Source: an uncultured Actinomycetota bacterium | Lineage (GTDB): Bacteria; Actinomycetota; Actinomycetes; JAFAQI01 | Reading direction: 5' to 3' | NCBI GenBank assembly: GCA_963770565.1 | Contig: CAVYQE010000006.1 | Location: forward strand, 1-64,000 | DNA: 64,000 nt | Made by a program: the position numbers and the translations under genes | In this document: piece after piece, positions 1,235 through 4,581 of the stretch | How positions within the stretch are numbered: position 1 is the stretch's first letter | Layout of the letters: each line of letters starts with the position of its first letter | Notes under the pieces: model-generated | What the model was told of the DNA's origin: nothing | The model's input: the letters and a program-made list of their open reading frames with translations, nothing else | The model's database searches: none

Positions 1235-1438
1235 ATGGAGATCCGCCGGCTCTTCTCTTGGAGGATGAACCTCTACCGCCTCATCGTGGGAGCAGTAGTC
1301 CTGGCCATCGTCTTGCCGTCCTGGGCGGCCGGGGTGCGGGCAACCTGGCTTGTTGTGACCGCGTGCATTGTTGTGGTTCTTGCAGGGGTCATTGTCGGCA
1401 GGCGGGTGCCACTCGTCCGAGGATGGCTGCGCCGCTGA
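1235..1438 (+). CDS. Small membrane protein, two hydrophobic segments
   Basis: 67-aa ORF with two hydrophobic stretches and a basic C-terminus. Alternative start at ATG 1266-region after GGAGG. Confidence 0.45.
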   Translation: MEIRRLFSWRMNLYRLIVGAVVLAIVLPSWAAGVRATWLVVTACIVVVLAGVIVGRRVPLVRGWLRR

Positions 1439-1536
1439 TGGCAATGGCGCCGAAACGGTCATGCCCGTGTGCGATGCCGGGAGTGCCAGAACATCGAACT
1501 CGCGGGGCTCGCCAGCCGCCGCTCCCGATGAAGGCG

Positions 1537-1752
1537 CTACTCGGGTCTTGAGAGGTACAGCGGGAAGAACACGATCCAGAGGATCAGGCATCCAGCGGCC
1601 CACGCCGTTGGGGTGCGGATGACGAGGTCTCCGGCGCGAACCGTCACCGGACGGCCGGCTCCCATGCGCTGCTTCGCGTCGCCATAGACCCATAGATCGA
1701 GGGCGATCCCCAGGCCGAGAACGATCAGCGGGGCAAGCGCTGTAGCGGACAC
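1537..1752 (-). CDS. Small membrane protein (71 aa), paralog of 6274..6489
   Basis: 3' part of ORF 1537..2163 from GTG 1752; DLWVYxDAK...WAAGCLILWIxFFPLYL is shared with 6274..6489. Confidence 0.7.
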   Translation of the reverse strand: MSATALAPLIVLGLGIALDLWVYGDAKQRMGAGRPVTVRAGDLVIRTPTAWAAGCLILWIVFFPLYLSRPE

Positions 1753-1860
1753 GGGGCACACGGCATAAGTGATGCCATAACGGAGCGGGGCCTCCCGCTC
1801 CTGTGAGTACCGCAGGAGACTGCGGTTGCTCATAAACCCACATGGTGAGGGAGGCCACCA

Positions 1861-2907
1861 ATGAGTGACGGTATCGCTAGGAAGAAGCAGTTCGTCGGCG
1901 TCGACCTGCATCTGCACCGGTCGGTGATCGTGCGGATCGACAACCGCGGTCGCGAGCTCGAGTGCGTGCGGATCGACAACTCTGTGTCCGGCCTTGTCGC
2001 TGAAGTGGCGAAGGCTGGGCAGGGTGCGCCGGTCGCGATCGAGGCGACATATGGCTGGTACTGGGCGGTCGACGCGTTGCAGGCGAAGGGTTTCGAGGTG
2101 CATCTCGCGCACCCGTACGGGATGAAGCAGATGCGGAAGCGGCGCCGGGTGAAGACTGACCATGCGGATGCGCTGGAGTTGGCGCGGCTGATGCGGCTTG
2201 GTTCACTGCCGGAGGCCTACATCGCCCCGGTCGAGCTTCGGGAGCTGCGGGAGCTGGTCCGCCACCGCCAGCAGCTGACGAAGGTCGCGACCTCAACCAA
2301 GGGCGGGATCCGCGCCGGGTTGGCGAAGCACGGGATCCGTCTGCCGGTCAGCAAGCTGAACACGGTTGCTGGGTCGGATCTGCTCGATGAGCTACGGCTT
2401 CCGGGCTACTACGGGCAGCGGCTCGCCGCGCAACGCCGGATGATGATGCTCGTCGAAGACGAGCTGGCTCGGGTGGAGCGCGAGCTGGACCGTCGGCTGA
2501 AGACCGACCCGGACTACCGGCGGCTGCAGAGGATCAAAGGGATCGGTCCGATCCTCGCGGCGGTGTTCGTCGTCGAGATCGGTGATGTGAGCCGGTTCCG
2601 CAACGCGGCCGCGATCACCTGCTGGGCCGGGCTGACTCCACGGGTGCATGAGTCCGACCGGCGCCGACACGACGGCTCGATCAGCAAGGAAGGCTGCGCC
2701 CTGGTCCGGTGGGCCGCAGTCGAATCGGTGCAACGCCAATGCGAACCAGTCATCCGAGCCGTCCGGGACGACATCCTCGCCCGCCGCGGGAAGAGAGCGA
2801 AGAACACCGCGAAAGTCGCCGCCGCCAGGCGGATGCTCGAGGTCGTCTACTACACGCTGCGTGACGGTGAGGCCCGTTGCCTGACCAAGCCGGTCGCCGC
2901 CGCGTGA
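1861..2907 (+). CDS. IS110 family transposase/recombinase (DEDD RuvC-like + Transposase_20)
   Basis: GVDLH, IEAT and KTDHADA (DEDD residues), IKGIGPILA, WAGLTPRVHES (serine finger), VAAARRML; RBS GGGAGG upstream. Confidence 0.95.
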   Translation: MSDGIARKKQFVGVDLHLHRSVIVRIDNRGRELECVRIDNSVSGLVAEVAKAGQGAPVAIEATYGWYWAVDALQAKGFEVHLAHPYGMKQMRKRRRVKTDHADALELARLMRLGSLPEAYIAPVELRELRELVRHRQQLTKVATSTKGGIRAGLAKHGIRLPVSKLNTVAGSDLLDELRLPGYYGQRLAAQRRMMMLVEDELARVERELDRRLKTDPDYRRLQRIKGIGPILAAVFVVEIGDVSRFRNAAAITCWAGLTPRVHESDRRRHDGSISKEGCALVRWAAVESVQRQCEPVIRAVRDDILARRGKRAKNTAKVAAARRMLEVVYYTLRDGEARCLTKPVAAA

Positions 2908-2919
2908 ACACCGTCAAGA

Positions 2920-3125
2920 CTTCGTGCGGGTCGAAGTAGCGGCATGACCCACCCTCGGGTGCGGTCGACGAAGTGAATGACCCCACGACCCTGGAACCCA
3001 GGGACGCTCGCACGGCTTCATGCTGACCACCACGTCGCGAAGGGATGCCTGACAGCAAACTGGCTGTCGCCGAGCTCTGCCATTTCAAACTGAAGCCGAA
3101 CCTGACAACCACATAGCGACGCCGG
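2920..3125 (+). ncRNA. Putative bridge/seek RNA of the IS110 element
   Basis: Stem 2928-2932/2979-2983 closes an internal loop carrying CGGCAT (2940-2945) and AAGTGA (2971-2976), which match the insertion target. A second domain (stem 3033-3038/3116-3121) carries AGGGATGCC, identical to the IS right end. RNA ends are approximate. Confidence 0.7.
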
Positions 3126-3359
3126 CAACACAGTCTGCGTCAACCACGAGACGGCCTCAACACCGTTCGTCCTCGCGCTCCGCGCTCCGGGCGCTGCGTG
3201 TTGACCCCGCCCCGCGATCGACGCCGCCCTTGATCTGCCGACCATCGCCGAAGAACGCTCAAAACAAACAGTTGACGGCCCCACTCCGTTCAGGGATGCC
3301 GTTCTTCGACGCTCGATCGTCGCGCACTTCGTGCACGTGATCCGGCGTAGCGTGCGCGA

Positions 3360-3746
3360 ATGGCACGCCTTGCTGACATCGTGTTCGACTGCGAACATCC
3401 CGCCTCGCTGGCGCGGTGGTGGGCCGCGGCGCTCGATGGCTACCGGGTCGCTGCTTACGACGAAGTTGAACTTGAGCGGTTGCGGGCCCGGGGGGTGTTC
3501 GATCCTGAGGATGACCCGAACGTCTTGGTCGAACCGAAGAGTGGCGAAGGGCCGCGCTTTTGGTTTCAACGGGTGCCAGAGCACAAGGAACATAAGAACC
3601 GGCTGCACCTCGATCTGCGCGCGGACGACCTCGAAGTTGAGGTGAGCCGCTTCGTTGAAATGGGCGCGACGGAGCTTTACCGACTCGGGACCAACGTGAC
3701 CTTGACGGACCCTGAGGGCAACGAGTTCTGTCTCGGACCGGGCTAG
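3360..3746 (+). CDS. VOC/glyoxalase-like family protein
   Basis: DIVFDCEHPASLARWWAAAL...FQRVPEHKEHKNRLHLDL...DPEGNEFC; TAGCGT-N6-ATG leaderless-type start. Confidence 0.9.
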   Translation: MARLADIVFDCEHPASLARWWAAALDGYRVAAYDEVELERLRARGVFDPEDDPNVLVEPKSGEGPRFWFQRVPEHKEHKNRLHLDLRADDLEVEVSRFVEMGATELYRLGTNVTLTDPEGNEFCLGPG

Positions 3747-3930
3747 CGCGAGGCGATGTCGCGGCCGGTCGGTCCGTTTCAGGGCGCCCGCGAAGTGTGA
3801 TCGCATGTGCTTGCCGGCGTTCACACTGTCGCTATTCGTCTGCGAGGCTGTATTCGACGATCACAACTTGGGATCGGGACGGCGGGCATTGCATCGGAGT
3901 TGAGGGCGTGAGGGAGGGAGCGGAAGCGGT

Positions 3931-4581
3931 ATGCGCATCATCGGAGCTGGCCTCGGTCGGACGGGAACCAACTCGCTGAAGCTGGCGCTCGAGCGGCTTC
4001 TTGGTCGCCCGACCTATCACATGATTGAGGTGCAGCGGCATCTTGACCATGTCCCCACCTGGCGCGCAGCCCTGCGCGGCGAGCCCGTCGACTGGGAGCC
4101 GGTCCTCGGCAATTACGCGGCGACTGTGGACTGGCCAGGTGCGGCGGTCTGGCGTGAGCTAGTTGCCGAGAACCCGGAGGCGGTCGTCCTGCTCTCGACG
4201 AGACGTGACGCGGCCACCTGGCTGGCGAGCGCGCGGGCGACGGTTATGGACAGCTCTGATCGGCTGGAGGACGAGCCCGACATGCCGGGATACATGGCGA
4301 TGGTCCGAGAGATGTACGAGATGTTTGACCCCCTCTGGCGGGATGACGGCGCTGCGATGACTGCTTATGAGCGGCATGCAGCGTCAGTGCGTCGCGAGGT
4401 CCGCGCGGATCGGCTCGTCGAGTGGCAACCGGGCGACGGTTGGGGGCCACTATGCGTCGCGCTCGGCGCGGCGGTGCCGCCAGAGCCTTTCCCACATGTC
4501 AACTCGACAGAGGAATACCGCGCGCGGCTCAGTCAGATCGAGAGCCGGCTGGCTGCTTCGAGAGACACCATCCACGAATGA
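3931..4581 (+). CDS. Sulfotransferase-family (P-loop) protein
   Basis: IIGAGLGRTGTNSLKLALE, YHM, VDWP, GDGWGPLC, PFPHVN motifs. Confidence 0.9.
   Translation: MRIIGAGLGRTGTNSLKLALERLLGRPTYHMIEVQRHLDHVPTWRAALRGEPVDWEPVLGNYAATVDWPGAAVWRELVAENPEAVVLLSTRRDAATWLASARATVMDSSDRLEDEPDMPGYMAMVREMYEMFDPLWRDDGAAMTAYERHAASVRREVRADRLVEWQPGDGWGPLCVALGAAVPPEPFPHVNSTEEYRARLSQIESRLAASRDTIHE

What the first reader, a model, noticed from the sequence alone, without database searches (positions are those of the whole stretch)
2920..3125. Readable bridge/seek RNA guides in the IS110 downstream non-coding region
Seen: the stem GGGTC(2928)/GACCC(2979) and an inner hairpin (2946-2966) frame an internal loop. One strand holds CGGCAT (2940-2945), the reverse complement of the target right half ATGCCG. 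The other holds AAGTGA (2971-2976), identical to the target left half. A second domain closed by CGTCGC(3033)/GCGACG(3116) holds AGGGATGCC (3041-3049), identical to the IS right end 3292-3300, and TGCCAT (3078-3083), identical to the left end 1773-1778. These are both halves of the predicted circle junction CAGGGATGCCATAAC. Known: IS110/IS1111 recombinases use a non-coding RNA with target- and donor-matching segments, encoded downstream of tnp in IS1111. Inference: a complete, probably active and reprogrammable system. Both donor matches being top-strand-identical differs from the IS621 layout.
Basis: partly seen in the sequence, partly recalled or inferred. Interest (0 to 1): 0.7.

Follow-up and report, generated by a model that had tools for sequence, protein, structure and literature searches.

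The report
IS1111-type insertion sequence with bridge RNA

Summary
The element is an IS1111-type IS: a DEDD/Ser transposase (1861-2907), 14-nt subterminal inverted repeats, a long 3' non-coding region, and three near-identical copies in the genome.

The target-binding loop is real. The stem GGGTC/GACCC, the inner hairpin and both guides (…CGGCAT, AAGTGA) covary with structure and with flanking DNA in 56-63 homologous loci.

Three points need correcting.
- **Core.** Unoccupied sites in other genomes show a TG core, not ATG or TGCC. The element is therefore 1772-3296, and the circle junction would be CAGGGA-TG-ATGCCATAAC.
- **AGGGATGCC.** AGGGA+TG reads the right end, but the last two bases (CC) follow the target's right flank (56/56 and 54/56 loci), not the left end. 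That is the handshake-guide pattern of IS621.
- **TGCCAT and the CGTCGC/GCGACG stem.** TGCCAT occurs at that place in 1 of 47 loci. The stem pairs no better than slid controls. The donor domain is instead a multi-loop closed by CGGCTTCA/TGAAGCCG.

No guide for the left end could be established, and no RNA data exist. Verdict: a new member of a known kind.

The parts
1770..1771 (+). Left copy of the 2-nt core TG (target side of the left junction)
   Evidence: Unoccupied sites of two target families have TG directly abutting the right-flank sequence and never TGATG. Unoccupied look-alikes of this element's own target read ..AGG-TG-CCGTTC...
1772..3296 (+). The insertion sequence proper (1525 bp), ATGCCATAAC...TTCAGGGA
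   Evidence: There are three copies in the genome. Copies 1 and 2 differ at one base. Copy 3 has that base plus a 1-nt insertion. The ends are redefined from the empty sites.
1779..1792 (+). Left subterminal inverted repeat AACGGAGCGGGGCC, 7 nt inside the left end
   Evidence: Local alignment of the upstream region against the reverse complement of the downstream region gives 13 of 14 matches to 3277-3290. The same architecture is seen in the homologues listed.
1861..2907 (+). Transposase/recombinase gene (348 aa)
   Evidence: Pfam DEDD_Tnp_IS110 (1.2e-20) and Transposase_20 (8.2e-21). D15, E61, D100, D103 and S265 are invariant in 13 homologues. E61, D100, D103 and S265 align with the IS621 motifs that hold its catalytic E, D, D and S. 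D15 aligns only in the ISCro4 row (GvD/GiD), not in the IS621 alignment. The numbering D11/E60/D102/D105/S241 is from PMC11208158.
2923..2932 (+). 5' strand of the outer stem of the target-binding loop (CGTG-c-GGGTC)
   Evidence: It pairs with 2979-2987. Helix 1 has 80.2% of cells paired and 5 pairs with changes on both sides. The MFE fold reproduces it.
2933..2945 (+). 5' guide of the target-binding loop. CGGCA (2940-2944) is complementary to TG+CCG of the target's top strand. T2945 is complementary to the last base (A) of the right end.
   Evidence: The contiguous complementary run into the right flank averages 5.61 nt for cognate pairs and 1.35 nt for non-cognate pairs (56 loci). Examples: L004 11 nt, L022 10 nt, L089 10 nt.
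2946..2966 (+). Inner hairpin of the target-binding loop
   Evidence: Helices 2-3: 84.1% and 62.7% of cells paired. Also in the MFE fold.
2969..2976 (+). 3' guide of the target-binding loop. AAG+TG (2971-2975) is identical to the target's left side plus core. A2976 equals the first base of the left end.
   Evidence: The base just 5' of TG matches the left flank in 45 of 46 loci, against a random-pair rate of 0.34. The next bases match in 28/46, 20/46 and 24/46, against 0.24-0.31. Highest mutual information of the whole scan: 1.31.
2979..2987 (+). 3' strand of the outer stem (GACCC-CACG)
   Evidence: Partner of 2923-2932.
2989..3003 (+). Small linker hairpin CCCTGG-aac-CCAGGG, specific to the window's subgroup
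   Evidence: MFE fold. In more distant homologues this stretch instead pairs with sequence upstream of the loop (read from the alignments; not counted).
3013..3020 (+). 5' strand of the stem that closes the second (donor) domain, CGGCTTCA. Also a weak candidate for the missing left-end guide.
   Evidence: It pairs with 3091-3098. Helix 4 has 79.6% of cells paired, with one pair UA:32/CG:30 and another UA:39/CG:8/AU:6. ACGGCTTCA matches the reverse complement of TG+ATGCCAT at 7 of 9 positions. Matches of at least 7/9 within 35 nt upstream of the RE guide (bins -35 to -20, which include this strand) occur in 24 of 53 loci.
3022..3038 (+). Small hairpin 'a' in the multi-loop.
   Evidence: MFE fold. 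G3022, C3023, G3037 and C3038 are invariant in 63 sequences.
3041..3049 (+). Single-stranded donor guide. AGGGA+TG is identical to the right end plus core. CC (3048-3049) is identical to the first two bases of the target's right flank (handshake-like).
   Evidence: G3044 equals the variable right-end base in 56/56 loci. 3048 equals the first right-flank base in 56/56, and 3049 equals the second in 54/56. All 14 loci whose flank does not start with A match the flank and not the left end.
3051..3068 (+). Hairpin 'b' of the multi-loop (GACAGC/GCTGTC)
   Evidence: Helix 5: 74.0% of cells paired, 5 of 6 pairs with changes on both sides. Also in the MFE fold.
3078..3083 (+).
   Evidence: The equivalent 6-mer is present in the 3' part of the domain in 1 of 47 loci, the window only. 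It is absent from all 9 other loci printed with a CCA-type left end, 7 of which have exactly CCAT. In relatives this stretch forms a third hairpin (helix 6).
3091..3098 (+). 3' strand of the closing stem of the donor domain, TGAAGCCG
   Evidence: Partner of 3013-3020.
3277..3290 (+). Right subterminal inverted repeat GGCCCCACTCCGTT, 6 nt inside the right end
3297..3298 (+). Right copy of the core TG
   Evidence: Identity with the paralogous segment at C2:888546 begins exactly here.

Best explanation
Window 1772-3296 is an IS1111-type insertion sequence. Its DEDD/Ser recombinase (1861-2907) is followed by a bridge/seek RNA of about 180 nt (about 2920-3100), probably co-transcribed with the gene.

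**Domain 1 is a target-binding internal loop.**
- The 5' strand (…GCGGCA, 2939-2944) pairs with the top strand of the core TG plus the right flank CCG….
- The 3' strand (AAGTG, 2971-2975) pairs with the bottom strand of the left flank plus the core.

**Domain 2 is a multi-loop closed by CGGCTTCA/TGAAGCCG.**
- Its single-stranded segment AGGGATG (3041-3047) pairs with the bottom strand of the right end plus the core.

**Each guide runs 1-2 nt past the core into the partner DNA, not its own.**
- T2945 matches the right end.
- A2976 matches the left end.
- CC 3048-3049 matches the target's right flank.

This is the handshake rule of IS621, and it means the guides match the recombination products. 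Read on the opposite DNA strand, the layout is that of IS621.

The element inserts at …AAG|TG|CCGTTCTTCGA, at the edge of a palindromic element of about 51 nt.

**Shown:** the anatomy, the covariation and the core. **Inferred:** RNA expression, protein binding and the strand-exchange steps. **Not identified:** a guide for the left end.
For: **Family.** Pfam domains. The catalytic residues are conserved and their motifs align with IS621/ISCro4 chains. A 14-nt subterminal inverted repeat. The non-coding ends are 389 nt on the 3' side and 89 nt on the 5' side. Three copies sit at sites that share RG-TG-CCGTTCT.

**Structure.** On 63 aligned homologues, 77.9% of cells are paired, against 33.0-46.4% when partners are slid. 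The covariation score is 0.202 against at most 0.084. None of 500 shuffles reaches the observed value. The MFE fold of 2917-3105 reproduces the helices, z = -1.92.

**Guides.**
- 5' guide against the right flank: mean run 5.61 nt cognate, 1.35 nt non-cognate, in 56 loci.
- 3' guide against the left flank: 45/46 at the first variable base.
- Right-end guide: 56/56. Its two extension bases against the target's right flank: 56/56 and 54/56.
- The top mutual-information pairs are exactly these positions.

**Core.**
- At least 14 of the 150 listed matches read CTG directly followed by GCACTACCG. None reads TGATGGCACTACC.
- 29 of 46 matches read YTG directly followed by ACCTGCGG. None reads TGATGACCTGCGG.

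**Literature.** The IS1111 guide order and the 3' location are described in PMC11187229 (abstract, sections 6, 8-10, 13, 14 read). Multi-loop donor binding in IS1111 is described in PMC11208160 (passages read). Handshake guides are described in PMC11208158 (passages read).
Against: - No RNA evidence: no RNA run holds the stretch, Rfam has no matching family, and no promoter-like or terminator-like site was found in 1700-3400.
- The whole non-coding region folds no better than shuffles, z = -0.63.
- The window's own 5' guide matches its three insertion sites contiguously for only TG+CCG, and further only with a G·T pair and a bulge (my reading).
- No convincing guide for the left end was found. 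No 10-mer within 2 mismatches recurs at a consistent place. The candidate in the closing stem varies among relatives whose left end is constant.
- For ISEc11 the short RNA with the target loop alone sufficed for transposition (PMC11187229, section 10), so the role of the second domain in IS1111 elements is not settled.
- The homologues are related, so the tallies overstate the number of independent events. Distinct guide/flank dinucleotide types are 6 matching and 2 mismatching.
- One of the rows (L016) comes from an unpublished genome.
Confidence: 0.8

Rival explanations
1. A second domain closed by CGTCGC/GCGACG carries both halves of the circle junction in the same sense: AGGGATGCC for the right end and TGCCAT for the left end. 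This would be a donor-binding layout unlike that of IS621.
For: All strings are present. In the window copy the stretch 3069-3090 that holds TGCCAT is not paired in the centroid fold. In relatives the corresponding stretch forms a third hairpin, which appears degenerate here.
Against: - The stem pairs in 45.3% of cells, against 27.7-43.5% for slid controls. CGTCGC is the 3' arm of a small conserved hairpin.
- The TGCCAT-type 6-mer is at that place in 1 of 47 loci, and in none of the 9 other loci printed with a CCA-type left end.
- With a TG core the left end starts ATGCC, so CC of AGGGATGCC is not left-end sequence. It follows the target flank.
- Both strings would have to pair with overlapping bases of the same DNA strand.
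Confidence: 0.05
2. The covariation of 3048-3049 with the target's right flank does not reflect pairing with DNA. It reflects RNA-RNA pairing between the donor-domain segment (…ATGCC) and the 5' target guide (GGCAT…), an intramolecular or alternative fold that must be kept when the guide changes.
For: The two segments are complementary over 5-6 nt in every target family seen. In the locus where guide and actual flank disagree (L014: guide predicts AC, flank AA), the donor-domain bases agree with the guide (AC).
Against: - The same complementarity exists by construction in IS621, where structures show that the handshake bases pair with DNA after strand exchange (PMC11208158, passages read).
- The MFE and centroid folds do not pair these segments.
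- The other two extensions (T2945, A2976) also follow the partner-DNA rule, which this rival does not explain.
Confidence: 0.12
3. The non-coding region holds only a target-reading seekRNA (domain 1). The second domain is a processing, stability or promoter-related element without a guide function.
For: For ISEc11 the 82-nt RNA sufficed and was even more efficient than the long form (PMC11187229, section 10). No left-end guide was found here.
Against: AGGGATG plus 2 nt is single-stranded in the folds. GAAG..ATG is invariant in 63 sequences. Its variable bases follow the right end (56/56) and the flank (56/56 and 54/56). That is hard to explain without base pairing to those sequences.
Confidence: 0.1

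Closest known systems
seekRNAs of IS1111-family elements ISEc11, ISPa11, ISKpn4 and ISPst6 (Siddiquee et al. 2024, PMC11187229)
   Same: - The long non-coding region lies downstream of the transposase gene.
- Subterminal inverted repeats are present.
- The transposase is 348 aa; the paper gives 330-350 aa for the family.
- The two target matches sit in an internal loop, with the top-strand complement 5' of the bottom-strand complement.
- The element lies next to a hairpin-forming repeat.
- Natural re-targeting among relatives occurs by changes in the guides.
   Different: - No experimental RNA exists here.
- The paper left the role of the longer (145-170 nt) RNA open.
- Here the second domain carries a segment that follows both the right end and the target's right flank.
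- Sequence relatedness to those elements was not tested, because no reference sequences were available in the tools.
IS621 bridge RNA (Durrant et al. 2024, PMC11208160; Hiraizumi et al. 2024, PMC11208158; 2026, PMC13626964 abstract only)
   Same: - The recombinase motifs align: E61, D100, D103 and S265 with IS621, and D15 with the ISCro4 chain.
- The core is 2 nt.
- Each guide covers an arm plus the core.
- The guides extend 1-2 nt past the core into the non-cognate DNA (handshake).
- There are two domains, one for the target and one for the donor.
   Different: - The RNA is encoded 3' of the gene, not 5'.
- The guide order relative to the element's orientation is reversed, so the layout matches IS621 only when the DNA is read on the other strand.
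- Donor-binding bases sit in a multi-loop and not in a simple internal loop.
- The core is TG, not CT.
- The subterminal repeats are long (14 nt).
- The guide for one donor arm (the left end) was not identified.
- Protein similarity is modest: E 9.8e-14, mainly in the C-terminal domain.
Predicted IS1111-group bridge RNAs of Durrant et al. [quoted passage not shown]
   Same: The bridge RNA is predicted in the right end. Donor-binding nucleotides sit in a multi-loop.
   Different: I could read only the text and legends, not the figures or Supplementary Table 5. I therefore cannot say whether the handshake-like pattern or a left-end guide is drawn there.

Membership tests
IS110 family, IS1111 group (insertion sequence) | DEDD (RuvC-like) N-terminal domain and a C-terminal Tnp domain with a catalytic Ser | tested here: met
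   PF01548 and PF02371 are above their cut-offs. D15, E61, D100, D103 and S265 are invariant in 13 homologues. E61, D100, D103 and S265 align to the IS621 motifs and D15 to the ISCro4 chain.
IS110 family, IS1111 group (insertion sequence) | Subterminal inverted repeats of 7-17 bp | tested here: met
   1779-1792 against 3277-3290, 13 of 14 matches, set 7 and 6 nt inside the ends. The range 7-17 bp is from PMC11208160.
IS110 family, IS1111 group (insertion sequence) | Longer non-coding region downstream of tnp, with a short left end | tested here: met
   389 nt (2908-3296) against 89 nt (1772-1860).
IS110 family, IS1111 group (insertion sequence) | Site- and orientation-specific insertion with the same short core at both junctions | tested here: met
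   Three copies lie at RG-TG|…|TG-CCGTTCT. The TG core is confirmed by empty sites.
IS110 family, IS1111 group (insertion sequence) | Transposase falls in the IS1111 clade of the ISfinder phylogeny | not tested
   No ISfinder reference sequences were available in the tools.
Bridge RNA / seekRNA | An internal loop whose two strands match opposite strands of the target on either side of the core, changing with the target among relatives | tested here: met
   5.61 against 1.35 nt, and 45/46.
Bridge RNA / seekRNA | IS1111 order: the top-strand complement lies 5' of the bottom-strand complement | tested here: met
   CGGCA (2940-2944) lies 5' of AAGTG (2971-2975). The rule is from PMC11187229.
Bridge RNA / seekRNA | A donor-binding domain with guides for both donor arms | tested here: inconclusive
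   The right-end guide is met (56/56). The left-end guide is not identified.
Bridge RNA / seekRNA | Handshake bases next to the core that match the non-cognate DNA | tested here: met
   3048-3049 against the target's right flank: 56/56 and 54/56, including 14/14 loci whose flank does not begin with A. T2945 and A2976 fit the rule but are nearly invariant, so they are uninformative.
Bridge RNA / seekRNA | The RNA is made and binds the recombinase | not testable with these tools
   No RNA run holds the stretch.
Bridge RNA / seekRNA | Match to a curated RNA family model | tested here: not met
   The only Rfam hit is an unrelated snoRNA model at E = 2.8. Whether Rfam 15 holds a bridge-RNA family at all was not checked.

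The most novel reading that the evidence does not exclude
IS1111-type bridge RNAs may be mirror images of the IS621 RNA. Read on the opposite DNA strand, all guide segments fall into the IS621 order, and all extensions past the core obey the handshake rule. The guide for the left end may be hidden in the closing stem of the donor domain (ACGGCTTCA, 3012-3020, 7 of 9 to the reverse complement of TG+ATGCCAT). Its partner strand TGAAGCCG then mimics the other DNA strand. On this reading the stem would have to open, or the long subterminal repeat would replace that guide. This would explain why the short target-only RNA suffices in ISEc11, and it would give design rules for IS1111-type recombinases.
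Probability: 0.25. Interest if true: 0.5.

Novelty: new member of a known kind. Interest (0 to 1): 0.3.

Why it matters
For annotation, the window holds a recently active RNA-guided insertion sequence. Its ends, core (TG), target (…RG-TG-CCGTTCTTCGA, at the edge of a palindromic repeat) and guide positions can now be written down.

For the field, the set of about 60 natural relatives with at least eight different right-flank targets is a small natural re-programming series for an actinobacterial IS1111 lineage. It shows that the handshake rule established for IS621 also holds in the donor domain of an IS1111-type RNA.

I found no paper that states this. The only four papers holding 'IS1111', 'handshake' and 'bridge RNA' together do not treat it in what I saw of them. 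For the fourth, a bioRxiv preprint on foundation models, I saw only the title and the start of the abstract in the listing. The figures and supplements of Durrant et al. could not be seen.

It does not change the known picture of how these elements work.

Tried and rejected
**Leads that gave nothing or were dropped**
- **Rfam scan of 1600-3500.** No relevant family.
- **Fold of the whole non-coding region.** No better than shuffles. Only the 189-nt core is informative.
- **The search for related loci in genome contigs with the single protein.** It gave one locus. Homologues came from the genome search and from the metagenome scan with alignment A1 (80 loci).
- **First reading of the core as ATG.** Rejected after the empty sites. 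Labels such as 'RE-1' and 'LE+1' use that older numbering. The tallies were recomputed for the TG reading.
- **Exact unoccupied target under the ATG reading (RGTGATGCCGTTCT).** No exact match. There were 19 one-mismatch matches, 3 of them the element's own right junctions, against 4 for the reversed control.
- **Left-end guide as a 10-mer within 2 mismatches.** No consistent place. As a 9-mer under the TG reading, matches are enriched just upstream of the right-end guide: 24 of 53 loci, and 0.92 hits per locus against 0.34 for shuffled queries. It does not covary, so I left it as a candidate.
- **The 9-nt match CGAAGAACG (3249-3257) to the right flank.** Relatives with other targets keep similar sequence there, so I judge it chance.
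- **Global MAFFT of whole non-coding regions.** Too gappy (938 columns). Replaced by trimmed segments.
- **Sequencing runs.** No RNA holder is listed.
- **Contigs of four soil-metagenome runs laid on 1300-3800.** No joint shows an empty site or a circle junction. Loose ends at 1766 and 3306 suggest further insertion sites of close relatives. This is not used as evidence.
- **Promoter/terminator scan.** Nothing found.
- **Supplementary files of papers.** Closed. Durrant et al. Supplementary Table 5 and the Extended Data figures may bear on the donor domain of IS1111 elements.

**Rows dropped before counts**
- L021 and L007 have no recognisable ends.
- L018 has no right end.
- L020, L034 and others have no guide anchors.
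- L030, L058 and L056 were dropped from A2 (truncated or uncertain ends).
- Loci whose contig ended before an end was reached are simply missing from the corresponding tallies. This is why n is 56, 46, 47 or 53 out of 96 loci processed.
Full report
**Observation**

All are at the stated coordinates. The same script shows that hexamer matches between the 380-nt non-coding region and the target and donor strings are frequent: 20 target and 12 donor matches of 6 nt or more. The strings alone could therefore be chance. The question had to be settled by comparison with relatives.

**What the element is**

- The ORF 1861-2907 (348 aa) carries Pfam DEDD_Tnp_IS110 and Transposase_20.
- In an alignment of 13 homologues, D15, E61, D100, D103 and S265 are invariant.
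- In the phmmer alignments to solved chains, E61, D100, D103 and S265 fall on the IS621 motifs (iEAT, KTDxxDA, GLTPRxxES), and D15 falls on the GiD motif of ISCro4. The residue numbers D11, E60, D102, D105 and S241 are taken from PMC11208158.
- A 14-nt subterminal inverted repeat (1779-1792 and 3277-3290, 13 of 14) flanks the gene.
- The non-coding part is 89 nt upstream and 389 nt downstream.

These are the features of the IS1111 group as described in PMC11187229 (section 6) and PMC11208160 (passages).

The genome holds three copies.
- The copy at C6:179710 differs from the window copy at one base (2497).
- The copy on C2 carries that change plus a 1-nt insertion after the equivalent of 2293, which breaks the gene.
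- The non-coding regions are identical.
- The three insertion sites share RG-TG on the left and CCGTTCT on the right.

**Relatives**

- The genome search over the family and class gave 15 homologous loci at 46-68% protein identity.
- The search for related loci gave one more.
- A metagenome scan with the protein alignment gave 80 more.
- Of 96 loci processed, 64 had a recognisable left junction, 72 a right junction and 48 both.
- All share the same end architecture: …TG-ATGC[C/G]A… on the left and …CAGG[G/A]A-TG… on the right.

**The core**

I first read the shared ATG as the core. Empty sites show otherwise.

- The relatives L004, L016, L024, L025, L028 and L030 sit in …GA[A/G]C-TG|…|TG-GCACTACCGATCGG. 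A pattern search over 401 genomes of the class found this right-flank motif in many places. Among the 150 matches listed, at least 14 read CTG directly followed by GCACTACCG, and none reads TGATGGCACTACC. The only ATG-GCACTACC with an element upstream is the occupied junction itself.
- For the ACCTGCGG target family, 29 of 46 matches in five genomes read YTG directly followed by ACCTGCGG, and none reads TGATGACCTGCGG.
- The window's own target has unoccupied look-alikes. These are C2:887575 (…CCGAGG-TG-CCGTTCTTCGACAC…), C2:888546 (…CATACG-TG-CCGTTC…) and one in a genome of the same genus (…TAGG-TG-TCGTTCTTCGAC…), again without ATG.

The core is therefore the dinucleotide TG. The element is 1772-3296 (ATGCCATAAC…TTCAGGGA).

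**Structure of the RNA region**

Sixty-three homologous segments (window 2917-3129 first) were aligned (A2), and a structure written from the window sequence was counted on them.

| Helix | Window coordinates |
|---|---|
| Outer stem | 2923-2926/2984-2987 and 2928-2932/2979-2983 |
| Inner hairpin | 2946-2966 |
| Closing stem of the second domain | 3013-3020/3091-3098 |
| Hairpin b | 3051-3068 |
| Third hairpin | taken from L004 |

- 77.9% of cells pair, against 33.0-46.4% when the partners are slid by 1-3 columns.
- The covariation score is 0.202 against at most 0.084.
- None of 500 shuffles reaches the observed values.
- The closing stem shows clear exchanges, with one pair UA:32/CG:30.
- Its 5' half is the 3' arm of a small conserved hairpin (3022-3038; invariant G3022, C3023, G3037, C3038).
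- The MFE fold of 2917-3105 gives the same helices, z = -1.92, with 10 of 200 shuffles as good.

The second domain is a multi-loop, as Durrant et al. describe for many IS1111 orthologues (PMC11208160, passage).

**Guides**

Mutual information was computed between alignment columns and flank or end positions. It singles out 2973 with the left flank, 3048 with the first right-flank base, 2940 and 2938 with the right flank as complements, and 3044 with the variable right-end base. The tallies on A2 are as follows.

- **5' guide.** It is complementary to the right flank for a mean contiguous run of 5.61 nt in 56 cognate pairs, against 1.35 nt in non-cognate pairs.
- **3' guide.** The base 5' of TG equals the left flank in 45 of 46 loci (random-pair rate 0.34). 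The next three equal it in 28, 20 and 24 of 46 (rates 0.24-0.31).
- **Re-targeting examples.**
  - L004: GGTAGTGCCAT against TG-GCACTACC.
  - L012: TGGCAT against TG-CCA.
  - L022: GCGAACGGCAT against TG-CCGTTCG.
  - L089: 10 nt.
  - L070: the TCGGTGC family.

The last base of each hexamer (T2945, A2976) belongs not to the target but to the element's ends.

**The donor domain**

GAAGG[G/A]ATG is almost invariant and single-stranded.

- G3044 equals the variable base of the right end in 56 of 56 loci.
- The two bases after TG equal the first two bases of the target's right flank in 56/56 and 54/56 loci.
- They would equal the left end (A, T) in 42/56 and 0/56.
- All 14 loci whose flank does not begin with A follow the flank.
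- There are six matching dinucleotide types (AC, CC, AA, GC, TC, TA) and two single mismatches.

This is the pattern of the handshake guides of IS621. Those are bases next to the core that pair with the non-cognate DNA after strand exchange (PMC11208158, section 'Handshake base pairing', passages read).

The other two extensions obey the same rule but are nearly invariant and so uninformative. T follows CA in the 5' guide, CAT in 44 of 63. A(T) follows TG in the 3' guide, TGAT in 51 and TGAA in 9 of 63.

Read on the opposite DNA strand, the order becomes that of IS621. The 5' guide has the same sense as the 'left' arm plus core. The 3' guide is complementary to core plus the 'right' arm and is followed by the handshake bases. 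The second domain has the handshake-bearing guide on its 3' side. This is my inference from the tallies. It agrees with the statement that the order of matches is reversed between the two families (PMC11187229, abstract).

**What is not there**

The equivalent 6-mer is present in 1 of 47 loci, the window itself, and in none of the 9 other loci printed with a CCA-type left end.
- A search for any 10-mer within 2 mismatches of the left end, on either strand, found no consistent place.
- Under the TG reading, 9-mers with at least 7 of 9 matches to the reverse complement of TG plus the left end cluster just upstream of the right-end guide, around the 5' strand of the closing stem. This holds in 24 of 53 loci, with 0.92 hits per locus against 0.34 for shuffled queries. 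The window has ACGGCTTCA and L019 has 8 of 9.
- That strand, however, changes together with its pairing partner among relatives whose left end is constant. I therefore regard it as only a candidate.
- For ISEc11 the 82-nt RNA without the second domain sufficed (PMC11187229, section 10), so the need for a left-end guide in this group is open.

**Expression and activity**

- No RNA run holds the stretch.
- Contigs of four soil-metagenome runs show no circle or empty-site joint.
- No sigma-70-like promoter or intrinsic terminator was found within 1700-3400. This fits co-transcription with the gene, as proposed for ISEc11, but does not show it.
- Near-identity of three copies at three matching sites argues for recent movement.

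**Comparison and novelty**

The element works like, and by the tested features belongs to, the IS1111 group with a bridge/seek RNA. Such RNAs were predicted in 93.0% of IS1111 elements (PMC11208160, passage).

New here are the particular lineage, its TG core and target, and the demonstration by natural variation that the donor-domain guide carries handshake bases. I found no paper treating handshake bases in IS1111 elements. Four papers hold the three terms together, and none is on this point in the parts I saw. The figures and supplements of the key paper were not visible to me.

One row of the tallies (L016) comes from a genome flagged as unpublished, and no claim depends on it.

Noticed in passing
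window 3297-4083 and G000:C2:888546-889332: The window's right flank is 100% identical to a second place in the genome for 787 nt. The identity starts exactly at the core TG of the right junction, and the sequence to the left of it differs (…CCCCATACG instead of the element). This could be a duplicated segment whose edge is a target site, or a recombinase-mediated rearrangement.
   Followed up: partly
window 3297-3347; G000:C2:887575-887625; G000:C2:888546-888599; L113 (G025:C97:2480-2526): A palindromic element of about 51 nt (TGCCGTTCTTCGAC…GATCGTCGCGCACTTCGTGCACGTGATC…) has three copies in the genome and one at 85% identity in a genome of the same genus. The insertion sequence sits at its 5' edge. 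The copy at C2:887575 is an unoccupied near-perfect target.
   Followed up: partly
window about 3150-3213: A long conserved hairpin lies 3' of the bridge RNA. Its arms TCAACAC/GTGTTGA become TCAAGGC/GCCTTGA in distant relatives. It ends in TTGACCCCGCCCCGC, an internal look-alike of the right subterminal repeat with its TTGAC. In several relatives the repeat search picked this internal copy first. Its function is unknown.
   Followed up: no
window 3272-3276: TTGAC is conserved in all relatives examined, just upstream of the right subterminal repeat and about 20 nt from the right end. It is a candidate -35 box of a junction promoter of the kind described for ISEc11. The -10 part could not be tested without typing a joined sequence.
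   Followed up: no
window 2930-2936: GTCGAAG, which overlaps the outer stem, is complementary to CTTCGAC of the right flank. With one G·T pair and one bulged U, the 5' guide could pair with TG plus 12 nt of the window's target. The window RNA has 1-2 extra bases here compared with its nearest relatives.
   Followed up: partly
G000:C2:464807-466335 (locus L003): The third copy of the element has a 1-nt insertion (G) after the equivalent of window 2293. This splits the transposase gene near residue 144-149. Its bridge-RNA region is intact, so it could be mobilised in trans.
   Followed up: yes
L033:131-313 and about L033:2270: The bridge-RNA segment of this metagenome locus occurs twice in the same contig, about 2.1 kb apart. 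This suggests tandem or adjacent copies.
   Followed up: no
L020 and L016: Two relatives have shortened non-coding regions (274 and 291 nt). L020 lacks the target-loop and donor-guide anchors altogether. L016 lacks the distal conserved hairpin. These are probably decayed or deleted copies.
   Followed up: no
window 3360-3746 and 1537-1770: The neighbours of the element are a Glyoxalase_6 domain protein on the right (PF18029, 2.8e-29) and a small ORF without a Pfam match on the opposite strand on the left. The element lies between them and interrupts neither.
   Followed up: partly
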